Source: a phage
Sequence record: PX104380.1
Reading direction: 5' to 3' (one strand)
DNA length: 64,000 nt
A program made the position numbers and the translations under genes. Of the stretch, positions 4,008 to 49,789 are shown one piece after another. A model generated the notes under the pieces. That model had not been told where the DNA came from. It was given only the letters and a program-made list of their open reading frames with translations, and searched no databases. How positions within the stretch are numbered: the stretch's first letter is position 1; the number at the start of each line of letters is the position of its first letter.

Positions 4008-4333
4008 TTAAACCATCCTTTAATACGCTGCCACAAAGTTTTCTGCTGAGCTTTGTTGACACCAATTGAACGAATAACTGGTTGAGATTCCTGGAATTCT
4101 TTATAATCGGCAAGGTAAATTTCGTAAGCTGCATCCGTAAATGAACTTATCGCTGCCATAAAATTATTGCGAATACCTACTGGAGCATCTTTACTTTCAC
4201 GAATAATCATGTATTTACCAGTCTTAATCTTTACAATAGTTCCAAGATAAGCTCCATGATACCAGATGTCCCAACCCTCTTGAGTAGGTTCTGCACAACG
4301 ACGAAGTTCATTAACAATTTCTAACTTGTTCAT
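4004..4333 (-). CDS. Hypothetical protein (motA.1 position)
   Basis: 109-aa ORF directly downstream of motA. Confidence 0.55.
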
Positions 4334-4343
4334 TATTTATTCC

Positions 4344-13976: not shown

Positions 13977-14348
13977 TCACTTAAATTTAATGGCTTGAAG
14001 GAGACTAATAATTCTTAAACGGCTTCTTTCATCTTTAACTGTAAAGGAAAGAGGGTCACCAGATTTCATAGTGATAGTGCATCCAAAATCAAAATTTTCG
14101 GAAACTTCTTCGAAGAAGTCAAATTCTTCAGCATAAATTAGAACATTACTCTGCATACTGTGAAGAATTTTTCCATCATTTCCAGATGCTGTACTAATCA
14201 TCGTAACATTATGACCTTTCATATCTTCAACGATAAATTCGCTTGTAGATATTACAGCATTAATAGAACCATTCCTATAAATAGCAGACATTAGATATTT
14301 CTTTTCTTCACCTTCGCGAACACGATATTTCTTACCGATTTTAAACAT
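13977..14348 (-). CDS. Hypothetical protein
   Basis: ORF; ATG at 14348 preferred over GTG 14354 of the track. Confidence 0.5.
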   Translation of the reverse strand: MFKIGKKYRVREGEEKKYLMSAIYRNGSINAVISTSEFIVEDMKGHNVTMISTASGNDGKILHSMQSNVLIYAEEFDFFEEVSENFDFGCTITMKSGDPLSFTVKDERSRLRIISLLQAIKFK

Positions 14349-14350
14349 AA

Positions 14351-14527
14351 TCACCCTTTAAGTAAATCGTAAAAACCACCATTCACATGCTTAGGAGCAG
14401 AAGGCCGACGAGTAGACAAACGATGACATTTAGGGCAAACATCATTTTCTCGTTCAGAAATCTTTTTAATTTTTTCATATTCATGCCCGCAGTCTTCAGA
14501 TTGGCATTTATAATCATACATTGGCAT
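14351..14527 (-). CDS. FmdB-like zinc-ribbon protein (58 aa), not in ORF track
   Basis: own translation MPMYDYKCQSEDCGHEYEKIKKISERENDVCPKCHRLSTRRPSAPKHVNGGFYDLLKG; CxxxxC...CxxC; AAGGA SD before ATG. Confidence 0.5.
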   Translation of the reverse strand: MPMYDYKCQSEDCGHEYEKIKKISERENDVCPKCHRLSTRRPSAPKHVNGGFYDLLKG

Positions 14528-24827: not shown

Positions 24828-24835
24828 TATTTATA
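24828..24835 (-). promoter_or_regulatory. Late promoter TATAAATA for soc
   Basis: exact T4 late consensus on - strand about 30 nt upstream of soc ATG. Confidence 0.7.
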
Positions 24836-25667
24836 ATCCATTTTCAAATCTCTTTATCATGTTTATATAATTTTCGTCAGGATAACCTAGGCTAACTGCT
24901 AGTTTTCTAAAATTGACATATTTAGGTTTGTTGTTATTAATCCATAATTCTCTAAGCTCTTTTTCATAATTCCATTTAAGTTGATTTCTGCGTGCAGTTT
25001 TGCTTAAAGTTTTTCCTTTAGCTTTTAAAGCTTTTTCAGATGACTGTTTTAATTTTTGAATATTTAAAACTTCTTCTATAGATAAATTATTTTCCTTTGA
25101 ATATCTTATGCAAAAATCTTTTACTGCGGCTATTAGGCAATTTTTGTGAGTACCTAAAATTTCTGGGTTATTTTCTTCAACTAAAATTCCCCAATATCTT
25201 CGGTAGCGAGGCATATCTCTTGAAATCCAGTCATTATACCAAAAATCAAAGTTGGAATACATGAAAGATTTTCTTTTACGAAGAGTATCTTGGTTTATCC
25301 ATTGCTCACGTTTATCAGCCCATAACTTAATAGTAAAGTCTTTTTCTGAGTCAGAAAGCTTCTTAAATTGCGAGCTATTTACTGAGGTCATTCTCTGGAA
25401 TGCATTCAGCAATCCAAATCTTCCAGTTGAACATAAGAGATAGTGAACATATATGTGTTGATATATTGGGAGATATACTCTATTCCAAGGATGTATTTTA
25501 AAATCACTATACTCAGGAAATGCGCATTTAGGAAGTATATGATGGGCTTCTGTTTTAGATTTGATGTGAGTGTTTAACTTATATTTATCTATAATTTTTA
25601 AGTACTCATCTAAAAGTTCCCATTGCGGGAACTTTTCTTTAAGAGCAGATTTGAAATTAATATCCAT
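24831..25667 (-). CDS. HNH-family homing endonuclease-like protein (Mob-like)
   Basis: about 278 aa; HNH-like core EAHHILPKCAFPEY...HPWNRVYLPIYQHIYVH; sits between 56 and soc. Confidence 0.65.
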   Translation of the reverse strand: MDINFKSALKEKFPQWELLDEYLKIIDKYKLNTHIKSKTEAHHILPKCAFPEYSDFKIHPWNRVYLPIYQHIYVHYLLCSTGRFGLLNAFQRMTSVNSSQFKKLSDSEKDFTIKLWADKREQWINQDTLRKRKSFMYSNFDFWYNDWISRDMPRYRRYWGILVEENNPEILGTHKNCLIAAVKDFCIRYSKENNLSIEEVLNIQKLKQSSEKALKAKGKTLSKTARRNQLKWNYEKELRELWINNNKPKYVNFRKLAVSLGYPDENYINMIKRFENGL

Positions 25668-26175
25668 TATCTTGACGTTCAAAATTATGCTTGTTCTTCA
25701 GATAATAAAGTTTAAAGATTTCTTCAGCAGTAAGGCCGAGACCTTGGAACATGTTCAGAACGAAATGAAGAATATCAATCATTTCGAATTTAATTTCCAA
25801 CTGGTCTTGTGGAGACAAATCAGTAATCAGAGTTTCACGACGTTCACCATGCTGCGACTTCCAAGGCTTCCATACAGCAGATGCATCTTTTTCACCATTG
25901 CTCATACCACCAAGAGAAGTCAGAAGTTCACGGAATTCATCATCAATGTAATCTTTCTGATTACGCAGCCAATCGACAACTTCACCTGCAGTAGCCAAAT
26001 CATCAGGATGACGGTTATATTCAGGTTTATCTTTAGCTAAACGAACCTGCAGAGATTTCTGCATATCAAGCATAACTTGCAGTGGGTCTTTTTCATCACC
26101 GAGAATATCCCAGTATTCATTTTGAGCTTTATCAGCACCAGCGATCAGATGACTACATTCGTTGAAATGTGGCAT
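25657..26175 (-). CDS. 56: dCTP pyrophosphatase gp56 (MazG-like)
   Basis: 172 aa; MPHFNECSHLIAGADKAQNEYWDILGDEKDPLQVMLDMQ matches remembered T4 gp56. Confidence 0.92.
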   Translation of the reverse strand: MPHFNECSHLIAGADKAQNEYWDILGDEKDPLQVMLDMQKSLQVRLAKDKPEYNRHPDDLATAGEVVDWLRNQKDYIDDEFRELLTSLGGMSNGEKDASAVWKPWKSQHGERRETLITDLSPQDQLEIKFEMIDILHFVLNMFQGLGLTAEEIFKLYYLKNKHNFERQDNGY

Positions 26176-26218
26176 GTTATTTTTCCTTTCAATTCATGGG
26201 TTAGTAGATTAATTATAC

Positions 26219-26226
26219 AATAAATA
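26219..26226 (+). promoter_or_regulatory. Late-promoter-like box AATAAATA upstream of the + strand small ORF
   Basis: same architecture as upstream of holin t: box, about 12 nt, AAGGAGG, ATG. Confidence 0.35.
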
Positions 26227-26248
26227 TATAAAGCAATAAGGAGGACAT

Positions 26249-26449
26249 ATGGTACAAAAATTAATGGCACTTGTTAATGCCATAAAAGGTAATAAAAAAC
26301 GTATAGCTTTTACTATTTCTGCTATGGTAGGAATTTTACTCTGGAACTTTATTTTATCACCTGTTGCAATTGCACATGGTGTTAATATTCCAGTAGTTAC
26401 TCTTGATACATTTGTAGATTTAGCATTTGCTTTAGTTGGGTTAATTTAA
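26249..26449 (+). CDS. Small hydrophobic protein (66 aa), only + strand gene inside the - strand block
   Basis: strong SD AAGGAGG 5 nt before ATG; hydrophobic segments; convergent with gene 61. Confidence 0.55.
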   Translation: MVQKLMALVNAIKGNKKRIAFTISAMVGILLWNFILSPVAIAHGVNIPVVTLDTFVDLAFALVGLI

Positions 26450-27474
26450 ATCTTAGCATATTTAGATAACCGCATTTTAGCCATTAACCCCTGGGCAATA
26501 TTATTTTTCATATATTCCATAATTTGTTCAGGGGTTGCACCTTCCTTTCTAATCATATCATTAACATCTTTTGATTTCCAGGGAGATTTATCCCAAAACA
26601 TAACCCTTTCTCCTGCATCAACTAATTTAGTCATTCGCTTGATAGTGTCAGGATGACGAGGTTCATTATCTAAAACCCACACTCGTCTATCTTTAAATGG
26701 AACAACTTCTAGGTCTAATTGACCACCCGTAATAGCTATACCATTTTCAATGAAAAGGGAATCGATAGGTCCTTCTAGAACATATACATCGCCATCTTTA
26801 ACTCGTTCAACTCCATAGATTTTTGTTGCCTCAGGATAAGCTTTAATGGTGATATATTTTTGAGGAGCATCTTTCTTTAATGCGCGTCCTTGAAAAGACT
26901 CAGCCTTTCCGTCAGCATTATAAATTGGAATAACAAGACGAGGCTCAGAAATTTCCTTTTTGTATGTTCCCGGTGCGATGCTATTAACTAATTTAGGCCA
27001 TTCGGTTGTAAACCAAAGATATTTCCATTTATCCTTTGGAATACAACGAGCTTTTACATATTTTATAATTGGATGGTCTTCCGCCAGTTTATCTAATCTA
27101 ACACATGACGGAAGAGATTTAATTATTTTCTTCTCAGGTTGTTTAGGAAGTTCTTTAGGTTTTTCTACTGAACGACTTTTACCTTTTTCTTTTCTTATTT
27201 CAAAGATATACTCACGATATAAATCAGGTTCAAACTCCTTTAAATATATTCCGATTGGTGCATGATAGTTACAGTTATAACAATGAATATTTCCTTCATT
27301 ATTATCACCATAATACCATCCACGGGCTTTATTCTGGTCGGTTTTTGAATCTCCACAAACTGGGCATCTAAACCGTAATTTAAAAGTTGAACTATTATTT
27401 ACTTGTGTGAATTTAGGTAAATGAGCTAATGCACGGTATGCAAACTCATTATCAATCCAAGGTATTGATGACAT
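26446..27474 (-). CDS. 61: DNA primase gp61
   Basis: 342 aa; zinc ribbon CPVCGDSK...CYNC, TOPRIM EGPIDSL; N-terminus as T4 gp61. Confidence 0.95.
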   Translation of the reverse strand: MSSIPWIDNEFAYRALAHLPKFTQVNNSSTFKLRFRCPVCGDSKTDQNKARGWYYGDNNEGNIHCYNCNYHAPIGIYLKEFEPDLYREYIFEIRKEKGKSRSVEKPKELPKQPEKKIIKSLPSCVRLDKLAEDHPIIKYVKARCIPKDKWKYLWFTTEWPKLVNSIAPGTYKKEISEPRLVIPIYNADGKAESFQGRALKKDAPQKYITIKAYPEATKIYGVERVKDGDVYVLEGPIDSLFIENGIAITGGQLDLEVVPFKDRRVWVLDNEPRHPDTIKRMTKLVDAGERVMFWDKSPWKSKDVNDMIRKEGATPEQIMEYMKNNIAQGLMAKMRLSKYAKI

Positions 27475-49495: not shown

Positions 49496-49631
49496 GATCG
49501 CAAATCATACGTTTATGTAACTTGAGTATAATATAGCAAACTTCAAAACTATTTACATGAGTAACGCGAACAACATTACCATTAATAAAATAATATTGTC
49601 CCTTTTTAATTTCTTTATCAACCATAACCAT
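49449..49631 (-). CDS. Hypothetical protein (60 aa)
   Basis: ORF behind early promoter. Confidence 0.45.
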   Translation of the reverse strand: MVMVDKEIKKGQYYFINGNVVRVTHVNSFEVCYIILKLHKRMICDRAVFSSVAKEIKLHG

Positions 49632-49655
49632 ATCAATTCCTCAAAGGTAATTCAT

Positions 49656-49712
49656 ATGTTAATAATACCACGGTTTGAACTTGTTGTAAACAACTTTGTG
49701 AAAAATATTTTA
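49656..49712 (-). promoter_or_regulatory. Early promoter
   Basis: GTTTAC (49686-49691), 18-bp spacer, TGGTATTAT (49662-49670). Confidence 0.55.
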
Positions 49713-49789
49713 GGGAATGATAAGAAGGGAACGATAGCTTAGAATGGTAATATACAGAATGTAAGAAAGAAAGGCCCAGAGGGCCCGTC

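What the first reader, a model, noticed from the sequence alone, without database searches (positions are those of the whole stretch)
26176..26449. Lone + strand late-type membrane ORF between genes 56 and 61, where T4 is remembered to carry dam
The 56-61 interval contains no methyltransferase-sized ORF. Instead there is one + strand gene, antisense to the whole early block, encoding a 66-aa hydrophobic protein with a strong SD and an AATAAATA box arranged like the holin t upstream region (1569-1595). A late-expressed small membrane protein here could act in lysis timing, superinfection exclusion or host takeover.
Basis: partly seen in the sequence, partly recalled or inferred. Interest (0 to 1): 0.6.

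Follow-up and report, generated by a model that had tools for sequence, protein, structure and literature searches.

The report
Conserved late membrane gene beside primase
The small forward-strand gene between genes 56 and 61 is a real, conserved T4-family gene for a 66-residue membrane protein that is probably made late in infection; it is already annotated as a hypothetical protein in hundreds of phages, is missing from the T4 reference annotation, and does not replace dam.

Summary
ORF 26249-26449 (+) encodes a 66-aa hydrophobic protein. It has an AAGGAGG ribosome-binding site and an AATAAATA box 22 nt before the ATG. It is the only + strand ORF across about 47 kb of minus-strand genes. No dam is present in the 56-61 gap or anywhere in the window.

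The "instead of dam" framing is wrong. T4 carries the same ORF (65/66 identical) next to dam, unannotated in its reference records. T4-type dam occurs in only 184 phage records, against about 500 Tequatrovirus records with the ORF.

The ORF belongs to phrog_2024 (RB69ORF029w, "Dam.1", S16 gp16.1). It sits in the same slot throughout T4-like phages. dN/dS is about 0.1. A NATAAATA box precedes it in every T4-like lineage checked except S16, which has ATTAAATA. The heptamer ATAAATA is otherwise strongly avoided (7 copies in the window, about 40 expected). Three other copies precede the known late genes t, soc and 49.

The predicted protein has a basic N-terminal helix, one transmembrane helix, a conserved loop and a short acidic C-terminal helix. 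Profile comparison links its core to the TM2-loop-TM3 part of GTA-type 3TM holins (PF11351): probability 82%, far above shuffled controls. It fails the formal membership tests for that family.

The best guess is a late accessory membrane or lysis-timing factor. The function has not been tested.

The parts
26219..26226 (+). AATAAATA, a T4 late-promoter-like box (consensus TATAAATA) ending 22 nt before the ATG
   Evidence: Sequence. The heptamer ATAAATA is strongly depleted in the window, 7 copies against 40.5 expected. The same AATAAATA form precedes t and gene 49 in this window. NATAAATA is conserved 16-33 nt before the orthologous ATG in the T4-like lineages checked, in different upstream contexts; S16 has ATTAAATA. 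The -13 position is known to vary between A and T in T4-like phages (PMC1524935).
26238..26244 (+). Shine-Dalgarno sequence AAGGAGG, 4 nt before the ATG
   Evidence: Sequence. AGGAGG, GGAGG or AAGGAG is present in all orthologous loci.
26249..26449 (+). Coding sequence of the 66-aa protein MVQKLMALVNAIKGNKKRIAFTISAMVGILLWNFILSPVAIAHGVNIPVVTLDTFVDLAFALVGLI (phrog_2024; RB69ORF029w, 'Dam.1', S16 gp16.1)
   Evidence: tblastn finds 693 phage records. dN/dS is 0.08-0.15 within Tequatrovirus and Mosigvirus. Synteny is conserved in divergent T4-like phages.
26252..26302 (+). Residues 2-18: amphipathic N-terminal helix plus a basic cluster (net charge +5), inferred to be cytoplasmic
   Evidence: The AF2 model has a helix at residues 2-12. 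The cytoplasmic location is inferred from the positive-inside rule.
26303..26374 (+). Residues 19-42: the transmembrane helix, containing the near-invariant W32-N33 and invariant P38
   Evidence: The AF2 model has a helix at residues 16-42. The Kyte-Doolittle 19-residue maximum is 2.0 at residues 23-41.
26375..26446 (+). Residues 43-66: the conserved loop (G44, P48) and a short C-terminal helix (residues 52-63) with an acidic residue at position 53 throughout the family except the VR25 tandem copy (Gly) and D57 in the window-type subfamily; inferred to be periplasmic or interfacial
   Evidence: This segment together with the outer half of the transmembrane helix is the part that aligns with PF11351-type holins.
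26446..26449 (.). TTAA: overlapping convergent stop codons of the ORF (TAA, 26447-26449) and gene 61 (TAA on the minus strand, 26446-26448)
   Evidence: The same 4-nt overlap with the downstream convergent gene is seen in T4, RB69, VR25, S16, L020, L021 and L032.
26212..26236 (-). Context: a minus-strand middle-promoter-like site for gene 56. The MotA box TTGCTTTA is the reverse complement of 26229-26236, followed by an 11-nt spacer and TATAAT, the reverse complement of 26212-26217. The late box lies inside the spacer.
   Evidence: Read from the sequence. RB69 has a published predicted middle promoter at the equivalent place, Pm:16038 (supplement of PMC1524935). T4 has P(M) 16.53 before gene 69/56 (X01416 annotation).
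26264..26283 (-). Context: a terminator-like hairpin with a T-run on the minus strand, inside codons 6-12 of the ORF. It is a likely terminator for gene 61 read-through.
   Evidence: It is conserved in T4 but not in RB69, VR25, S16 or the more distant lineages.
25657..26175 (-). Context: gene 56 (dCTP/dUTP pyrophosphatase)
   Evidence: phrog_173 at 7.8e-47. Annotation of the Kha5h and T4 homologues.
26446..27474 (-). Context: gene 61 (DNA primase)
   Evidence: phrog_47 at 1.2e-106. T4 and Kha5h annotation.

Best explanation
This is a genuine, conserved gene of T4-like phages (Tevenvirinae). It is transcribed from its own gp55-type late promoter, on the strand opposite to the surrounding early and middle genes. 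Its product is a 66-residue protein of the cytoplasmic membrane. A basic amphipathic N-terminus faces the cytoplasm. One helix spans the membrane. A conserved loop and a short acidic helix lie at the periplasmic face. The conserved core (W-N-x4-P-x5-G-x3-P-x4-D/E) is remotely related to the TM2-loop-TM3 portion of GTA-type three-TM holins (PF11351). I therefore infer that it acts late in the inner membrane as an accessory holin-like factor that tunes membrane permeabilisation or lysis timing, and not as the main holin, which in T4 is gpT. It has nothing to do with dam. The segment between it and gene 56 is a variable slot that may hold dam, a homing endonuclease or nothing. Shown here: gene reality, conservation, synteny, the promoter-like box and the membrane-protein architecture. 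Inferred: late transcription, topology, and the lysis-related mechanism. My confidence in the shown part is about 0.85 and in the lysis-related mechanism about 0.3; the confidence value given for this explanation (0.35) refers to the whole statement including the mechanism.
For: Gene reality. The protein matches phrog_2024 at 1.5e-31. tblastn finds it in 693 phage records. It is intact in T4 itself. dN/dS is 0.08-0.15 within Tequatrovirus and Mosigvirus. No gene lies on the opposite strand that could explain this conservation. Orthologues down to about 25% identity occupy the same slot between 56 and 61 on the + strand in RB69, VR25, S16 and metagenomic T4-likes.

Late promoter. ATAAATA is about six-fold depleted in the window. 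Three of the other six copies precede t, soc and 49. The box is present 16-33 nt before the ATG in the T4-like lineages checked, in at least four unrelated upstream contexts, with S16 carrying ATTAAATA. Non-T4 relatives sit at the end of structural/late blocks after an endonuclease VII gene.

Membrane protein. The AF2 model (pLDDT 77) has helices at residues 2-12, 16-42 and 52-63. Hydropathy and charge distribution agree.

Holin link. hhalign of the family against PF11351-type proteins gives probability 82%, E = 1e-5, over 39 columns covering TM2-loop-TM3. Sixty column shuffles score 10.9 +/- 2.5 with a maximum of 17.8, against 34.4 observed. Divergent members give weak direct hits to phrog_3427 holin (5e-4 and 2e-3), to PF11351 (0.03 and 0.1) and to phrog_11161 holin (0.012). 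An 81-aa 'GTA-like holin' of phage Pan1 has the same layout. The RcGTA locus rcc00555-rcc00556 (endolysin and holin) is required for lysis and release (PMC5026251).
Against: No transcript, protein or phenotype data for this ORF were found. The window protein itself has no Pfam or NCBIfam hit even at E <= 10. The holin similarity covers only about 40 residues of membrane-embedded sequence, and 82% probability is short of certainty. The protein lacks the charged hydrophilic C-terminal tail typical of holins. Its C-terminal helix of about 12 residues is too short to span a bilayer. It is not linked to the lysis genes t, e, rI or the spanins. From established T4 genetics (my knowledge), t-null mutants do not lyse, so this protein cannot by itself release the endolysin. 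A protein that collapsed the membrane potential late would also be hard to reconcile with hours-long lysis inhibition. The box has A, G or C but never the consensus T at its first position in any lineage, so the promoter may be weak.
Confidence: 0.35

Rival explanations
1. It is a late inner-membrane protein with a role unrelated to lysis. Possible roles are countering a membrane-associated host defence, excluding late superinfection, or altering envelope physiology late in infection. On this view the similarity to holins reflects only a shared membrane-insertion module.
For: The protein has the same architecture and the same promoter evidence as in the main explanation. It is never linked to lysis genes in T4-like phages. 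One distant member lies directly upstream of a RelA/SpoT-type gene. The gene sits among accessory genes such as sp and dmd.
Against: It gives no match to immunity or exclusion families in Pfam, such as the Imm and Spackle models, at E <= 10. The known T4 exclusion genes imm and sp are early genes (established T4 knowledge). The only sequence lead obtained points to holins.
Confidence: 0.3
2. The main function of the element is the late promoter. It drives antisense transcription through gene 61 and the upstream early genes, to shut down primase and early mRNAs late in infection. The small ORF is secondary.
For: The ORF's stop overlaps the stop of gene 61, and no convincing + strand intrinsic terminator follows for more than 4 kb. 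The promoter box is conserved.
Against: Antisense RNA alone would not impose codon-level purifying selection (dN/dS about 0.1). It would not maintain an intact 52-70-aa reading frame with a conserved motif and a strong ribosome-binding site down to about 25% identity. It would not explain homologues in non-T4 phages that lack the convergent primase gene. The two functions could coexist.
Confidence: 0.1
3. It is a membrane-bound helper of virion assembly, for example of membrane-associated prohead initiation or fibre assembly.
For: It has late-type expression signals. Non-T4 homologues lie at the end of tail or structural gene blocks.
Against: It shows no similarity to gp40 or other assembly chaperones. 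It lies far from the structural genes in all T4-like phages. No missing membrane factor is called for by T4 assembly genetics (my knowledge).
Confidence: 0.08
4. It is a chance or decaying ORF that is not expressed.
For: It is absent from the T4 reference annotations. No experimental data were found.
Against: The frame is intact in 693 records. Purifying selection, a conserved ribosome-binding site, a conserved promoter box and a conserved position hold across several genera.
Confidence: 0.03

Closest known systems
phrog_2024: RB69ORF029w, RB32ORF030w, 'Dam.1' (Kha5h note), Salmonella phage S16 gp16.1; hypothetical proteins of Tevenvirinae
   Same: It is a full-length sequence match (E = 1.5e-31). 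The size is the same (57-70 aa). The position is the same, between genes 56 and 61, on the opposite strand, with a stop overlapping the convergent gene. The upstream NATAAATA box and ribosome-binding site are the same.
   Different: Nothing essential differs; the window gene is an ordinary member. Gaprivervirus phages carry two tandem diverged copies, while this window has one.
GTA-type three-TM holins (Pfam PF11351 GTA_holin_3TM; named, per Pfam's description, for the holin of the RcGTA release locus rcc00555-rcc00556; phage homologues such as Rhodobacter phage RC1 RHWG_00029 and the short 'GTA-like holin' Pan1_96)
   Same: They share the pattern W-N-x(4)-[hydrophobic/P]-x(5-6)-x-L-P-P-x-P-x-[DE] followed by a hydrophobic helix. 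This corresponds to the outer half of a transmembrane helix, a periplasmic loop and the next helix. hhalign gives probability 82% with a score about 9 sd above shuffles.
   Different: The window protein is 66 aa against about 170 aa. It lacks the N-terminal helix and the long soluble segment, the complete third TM helix and the charged C-terminal tail. It does not reach the Pfam threshold. It is not next to an endolysin gene.
T4 lysis-control proteins: holin T, antiholins RI and RIII
   Same: Holin t is a late gene with the same form of promoter box and ribosome-binding site in this window. T and RI are also small-TMD inner-membrane proteins with periplasmic C-termini (established knowledge).
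   Different: No sequence similarity was detected with the family libraries. The periplasmic part is only about 24 residues, so it has no domain comparable to the periplasmic domains of T or RI.
ORF52 of Salmonella phage BSPM4, a 64-aa membrane protein outside the lysis cassette that modulates holin function (PMC11657625)
   Same: It is a functional analogy only: similar size, a single TM helix, encoded away from the lysis genes, and proposed to fine-tune lysis timing.
   Different: No homology was tested or claimed. The phage family is different (Chi-like). In ORF52 the TM helix is at the N-terminus.

Membership tests
phrog_2024 (Tevenvirinae small membrane protein between genes 56 and 61) | Significant full-length match to the family profile | tested here: met
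   E = 1.5e-31 over residues 2-66 against profile positions 1-65 of 65.
phrog_2024 (Tevenvirinae small membrane protein between genes 56 and 61) | Conserved genomic slot: + strand, between gene 56 and gene 61, convergent with a 4-nt stop overlap | tested here: met
phrog_2024 (Tevenvirinae small membrane protein between genes 56 and 61) | Signature residues W32, N33, P38, G44, P48 and an acidic residue at position 53 | tested here: met
   Alignments A2 and A4.
T4 late (gp55-dependent) genes | A TATAAATA box ending about 6 nt before the transcription start, a short distance upstream of the ribosome-binding site | tested here: met
   The box matches 7 of 8 positions (AATAAATA), the same variant as before t and 49 in this window. 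The heptamer is six-fold depleted in the window. It is conserved before the orthologues checked, with ATTAAATA in S16. The -13 base is known to be variable (PMC1524935).
T4 late (gp55-dependent) genes | A transcript that appears late and depends on gp55, gp33, gp45 and DNA replication | not testable with these tools
   A T4 dRNA-seq data set exists (10.1101/2024.04.04.588121, 150 phage transcription start sites including 22 antisense), but its table is not held.
Holins (functional class) | Small protein with at least one transmembrane helix | tested here: met
Holins (functional class) | Highly charged hydrophilic C-terminal (cytoplasmic) tail | tested here: not met
   The C-terminus is ...DLAFALVGLI. 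No basic residue occurs after R18.
Holins (functional class) | Encoded next to an endolysin or spanin gene (lysis cassette) | tested here: not met
   The neighbours are 56, 61 and, in some phages, dam or a homing endonuclease. This criterion is weak for T4, where t and e are also unlinked. One non-T4 homologue lies about 1.5 kb from a Phage_lysozyme gene.
Holins (functional class) | Lethal, timed membrane hole formation; complementation of a holin-defective phage | not testable with these tools
   This needs an experiment.
PF11351 GTA_holin_3TM | Score above the Pfam gathering threshold (24.8 bits) | tested here: not met
   The window protein gives no hit at E <= 10. Divergent family members reach 13.6-15.3 bits. 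Even RC1 RHWG_00029 scores 24.2.
PF11351 GTA_holin_3TM | Three transmembrane segments, about 136-220 aa | tested here: not met
   The protein is 66 aa with one full TM helix plus a 12-residue helix.
PF11351 GTA_holin_3TM | Profile-profile similarity over the conserved C-terminal membrane region | tested here: inconclusive
   hhalign gives probability 82.3%, E = 1e-5, over 39 columns. The observed score is 34.4 against 10.9 +/- 2.5 (maximum 17.8) for 60 column shuffles. This supports relatedness of one module, not membership.
Dam DNA adenine methyltransferase | A homologue of T4 Dam in the 56-61 interval or elsewhere in the window | tested here: not met
   The best tblastn hit has E = 0.8. No DPPY/NPPY motif lies in an ORF of suitable size.
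Superinfection-exclusion proteins Imm and Sp | Match to the Imm or Spackle family models | tested here: not met
   No Pfam hit at E <= 10. Spackle is a separate gene further upstream on the minus strand.

The most novel reading that the evidence does not exclude
T4 and all its close relatives encode a hitherto unrecognised lysis-control component. It would be a truncated, single-span relative of GTA-type holins, made at a low level from a sub-consensus late promoter. It would co-assemble with holin T, or act on the membrane beside it, to set the lysis clock or stabilise lysis inhibition. It has been missed for decades because the gene is absent from the T4 reference annotation.
Probability: 0.15. 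Interest if true: 0.7.

Novelty: new member of a known kind. Interest (0 to 1): 0.4.

Why it matters
T4 is among the best-annotated viruses. Even so, its reference records leave the 309 bp between dam and gene 61 empty, although a conserved late-type gene for a membrane protein lies there. The evidence argues for adding it to the T4 annotation. It also gives a concrete and cheap hypothesis to test, a holin-related accessory factor, in a lysis and lysis-inhibition system that is still being worked out.

Tried and rejected
1. dam. I looked for dam hidden in another frame or elsewhere in the window by tblastn, blastn and a motif scan, and found none. I rejected 'the ORF replaces dam' because T4 and SH_GT have both.

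2. Curated families. Pfam and NCBIfam scans of four family members at E <= 10 gave nothing.

3. Fold search. A search of the AF2 model against viral structures returned only family members. One carries an automatic 'Holin' name. The afdb50 library was unavailable.

4. Literature. Searches for RB69ORF029w, RB32ORF030w, dam.1, T4 late-promoter and TSS maps, ribosome profiling and unannotated T4 genes found nothing on this ORF. The Miller 2003 T4 genome review is not held. The TSS table of the T4 dRNA-seq preprint is not held. The DksA RNA-seq supplement lists annotated genes only.

5. Minus-strand hairpin. I considered the hairpin inside codons 6-12 as a conserved structure tied to the ORF, for example a dual-start control element. 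I rejected this because it is conserved only in Tequatrovirus, and Met6 is likewise lineage-specific.

6. Neighbours of non-T4 homologues. I scanned them for endolysins. The results were not decisive: a 'minor tail protein' at 6.8e-8, and a lysozyme 1.5 kb away in one case.

7. The word-indexed protein search with the single sequence found only relatives with more than 89% identity. The profile searches were needed to go further.

Full report
**What is there**

The window is a T4-type phage (Tequatrovirus). The 1.9 kb around the finding is 97% identical to phage Kha5h and matches several hundred T-even genomes. Gene 56 (dCTPase) lies at 25657..26175 on the minus strand. Gene 61 (primase) lies at 26446..27474 on the minus strand.

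Between them is a 73-bp spacer followed by an ATG ORF at 26249..26449 on the + strand. It encodes 66 aa: MVQKLMALVNAIKGNKKRIAFTISAMVGILLWNFILSPVAIAHGVNIPVVTLDTFVDLAFALVGLI. AAGGAGG lies at 26238-26244 and AATAAATA at 26219-26226. The stop codon of the ORF and the stop codon of gene 61 overlap in the tetranucleotide TTAA (26446-26449).

A greedy non-overlapping ORF map shows that this is the only + strand ORF between 2251 and 49557.

**dam**

There is no methyltransferase in the gap or anywhere in the 64 kb. The best tblastn hit of T4 Dam has E = 0.8. This is not a replacement, however.

In T4 the order is 56, dam, a 309-bp unannotated gap, then 61. That gap contains the same ORF, 65/66 identical, at NC_000866 17738-17938. 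Shigella phage SH_GT has both genes annotated.

T4-type dam is found in 184 phage records. The ORF is found in 693 records, about 500 of them Tequatrovirus.

The segment between 56 and the ORF is a variable slot. It is empty here and in Kha5h, holds dam in T4, and holds a homing endonuclease in the PYPS2T/fPS-2/G50 group. Absence of dam is thus an ordinary polymorphism.

**Is the ORF a gene?**

The evidence says yes.
- It matches phrog_2024 (function unknown) at 1.5e-31 over its full length.
- It is annotated as RB69ORF029w, RB32ORF030w, 'Dam.1', S16 gp16.1 or 'putative transmembrane protein'.
- dN/dS is 0.08-0.15 within Tequatrovirus and Mosigvirus. It is 0.16-0.48 between genera, where synonymous sites are near saturation.
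- Nothing is encoded on the opposite strand that could explain the constraint.

A profile search of 1.8 billion representative proteins found 17 relatives of 33-70 aa (two are fragments of 33 and 45 aa) that share W-N-x4-P-x5-G-x3-P-x4-[DE]. Those I could place in divergent T4-like contigs occupy the same slot: after the gene 56 block, on the opposite strand, with a stop overlapping the next convergent gene. The same holds for Salmonella phage S16.

Gaprivervirus phages carry two diverged tandem copies. The second type is also found in several Klebsiella T4-like phages (Potts1, Marfa, pzk-kv8, SAKp28).

**Is it late?**

This is not shown directly but is well supported.
- The heptamer ATAAATA occurs only 7 times on both strands of the window, against 40.5 +/- 6.8 in shuffles. 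The phage therefore avoids it.
- Of the other six copies, three lie in front of the classical late genes: t (AATAAATA, 18 nt before the ATG), soc (TATAAATA) and 49 (AATAAATA).
- The copy at 26220 ends 22 nt before this ORF's ATG.
- NATAAATA is present 16-22 nt before the ATG in all 17 loci examined from Tequatrovirus, Mosigvirus and Gaprivervirus. The upstream contexts differ: the gene 56 promoter here, the dam promoter region in T4, a homing-endonuclease flank in L010, and the RB69 and VR25 arrangements.
- It is also present in four more distant T4-like contigs at 16-33 nt. S16 has ATTAAATA.

The first base is A, G or C and never T. Published work notes that the T at -13 is poorly conserved in T4-like phages, with A or T common (PMC1524935).

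In this window the box lies inside the spacer of a minus-strand middle-promoter-like site for gene 56. That site is the MotA box TTGCTTTA, 11 nt, then TATAAT (read). RB69 has a published predicted middle promoter at the same place.

No + strand terminator follows the ORF for more than 4 kb. A late transcript would therefore run antisense into gene 61.

**The protein**

The AF2 model built with a 20-sequence alignment has mean pLDDT 77. It has helices at residues 2-12, 16-42 and 52-63, and a loop at 43-51.

Residues 1-18 carry a net charge of +5. The hydropathy maximum is at residues 19-42. The tail has D53 and D57 on one face of a 12-residue helix.

By the positive-inside rule the N-terminus is cytoplasmic and the last 24 residues are periplasmic or interfacial. 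This topology is an inference.

The best-conserved part is the outer half of the transmembrane helix and the loop.

**Relation to known families**

Pfam and NCBIfam give no hit for the window protein at E <= 10. Divergent family members give weak hits to three holin families:
- phrog_3427 (5e-4 and 2e-3);
- PF11351 GTA_holin_3TM (0.03 and 0.1, profile positions 66-117 of 123);
- phrog_11161 (0.012).

tblastn with one divergent member reached an 81-aa 'GTA-like holin' of cyanophage Pan1 and a 170-aa protein of Rhodobacter phage RC1. The RC1 protein scores 24.2 bits on PF11351. It reads ...LLWLWNVIILHVLNAIFKTALPPMPFDQLIQLSGL....

I aligned 21 RC1-type proteins, several of them pre-annotated as PF11351. 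I compared this profile with the 28-member family profile. hhalign gave probability 82.3%, E = 1e-5, over 39 columns, family positions 27-65 against TM2-loop-TM3 of the holins. Sixty column-shuffled controls scored 10.9 +/- 2.5 (maximum 17.8) against 34.4 observed, and the reversed profile scored 9.5.

The similarity is therefore not a composition effect. The family probably shares this membrane module with GTA-type holins. The RcGTA endolysin-holin locus rcc00555-rcc00556 is required for lysis and release (PMC5026251; see also PMC3423380).

Membership fails on length, number of transmembrane helices, the charged C-terminal tail, the Pfam threshold and linkage to an endolysin.

**Mechanism**

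I commit to a late accessory inner-membrane factor of holin ancestry that modulates permeabilisation or lysis timing. My confidence in that mechanism is about 0.3.

It cannot be the primary holin, because T4 t mutants do not lyse (established knowledge). A freely depolarising protein would also conflict with lysis inhibition.

A functional precedent exists in phage BSPM4. Its ORF52 is a 64-aa membrane protein encoded outside the lysis cassette that tunes holin function (PMC11657625).

The rivals are a late membrane protein with a defence or exclusion role, a mainly antisense-RNA function, an assembly helper, and a non-expressed ORF. They are weighed in the rival section.

**Novelty and interest**

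The gene is already deposited as a hypothetical protein in hundreds of genomes and has its own PHROG, so its existence is not new.

Four points may be new, since I found no paper on the ORF:
- its omission from the T4 reference;
- its presence at the same slot in all eight or so T4-like lineages examined;
- the conserved late box;
- the profile-level link to GTA-type holins.

I rate it as a new member of a known kind, with interest 0.4.

Noticed in passing
window 24831-25682 (-): A 283-aa HNH-type homing endonuclease ORF (phrog_655, 4.5e-33) sits between soc and gene 56 and overlaps the 3' end of gene 56 by 26 nt. T4 has the unrelated GIY-YIG endonuclease segF at this position. The ORF contains an internal GATAAATA at 25581-25588 on the minus strand.
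   Followed up: partly
whole window, both strands: The late-promoter heptamer ATAAATA is about six-fold under-represented, with 7 copies against 40.5 +/- 6.8 expected. This suggests selection against spurious late promoters. Any occurrence of the heptamer is therefore informative when annotating T4-like genomes.
   Followed up: partly
window 14276-14283 (+): A perfect TATAAATA lies on the + strand inside, and antisense to, a 125-aa minus-strand early-region ORF (13977..14354). No ORF start follows it. It may be an orphan antisense late promoter or a chance copy.
   Followed up: no
window 26212-26236 (-): A middle-promoter-like site for gene 56 (MotA box TTGCTTTA, 11 nt, TATAAT) overlaps the + strand late box, which lies in its spacer. 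The two divergent promoters of different temporal classes therefore share the same 25 bp. In T4 the gene 56 middle promoter is associated with oriA.
   Followed up: partly
window 26264-26283 (-): A terminator-like hairpin with a T-run on the minus strand is embedded in codons 6-12 of the + strand ORF, so the sequence is dual-use. It is conserved in T4 but not in RB69, VR25 or S16.
   Followed up: yes
L005 2701-2901 (VR25) and L006 (TH40): Gaprivervirus VR25 has a second, diverged tandem copy of the gene (VR25_032). This type is also found in several Klebsiella T4-like phages such as Potts1 and Marfa. In TH40 the second copy looks degraded. dN/dS of the first copy is relaxed in this genus, at 0.39-0.68.
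   Followed up: partly
L026 129-308 and 325-1383: A distant family member (P0117, 59 aa) lies 17 nt upstream of a 352-aa RelA/SpoT-domain gene on a short metagenomic contig. This could be a small-alarmone-synthetase module paired with a membrane partner.
   Followed up: no
L024 4553-5210 and L031 4543-5159: In two contigs that are not organised like T4 at this locus, the family member follows an endonuclease VII gene at the end of a tail or structural block. This is a recurrent pairing of a 94-aa ORF, endonuclease VII and the small membrane protein.
   Followed up: partly
window 49557-49742 (+): This is another small + strand ORF (61 aa) within the minus-strand block. Its C-terminal 28 residues match phrog_13445 (function unknown) at 3.4e-22. 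No ATAAATA box lies nearby.
   Followed up: partly
window 4333-4341 (-): AATAAATA lies directly against the ATG of the 109-aa ORF downstream of motA. Here it serves as the spacer between the ribosome-binding site and the start codon. This copy cannot be a promoter for that ORF and is probably incidental.
   Followed up: yes
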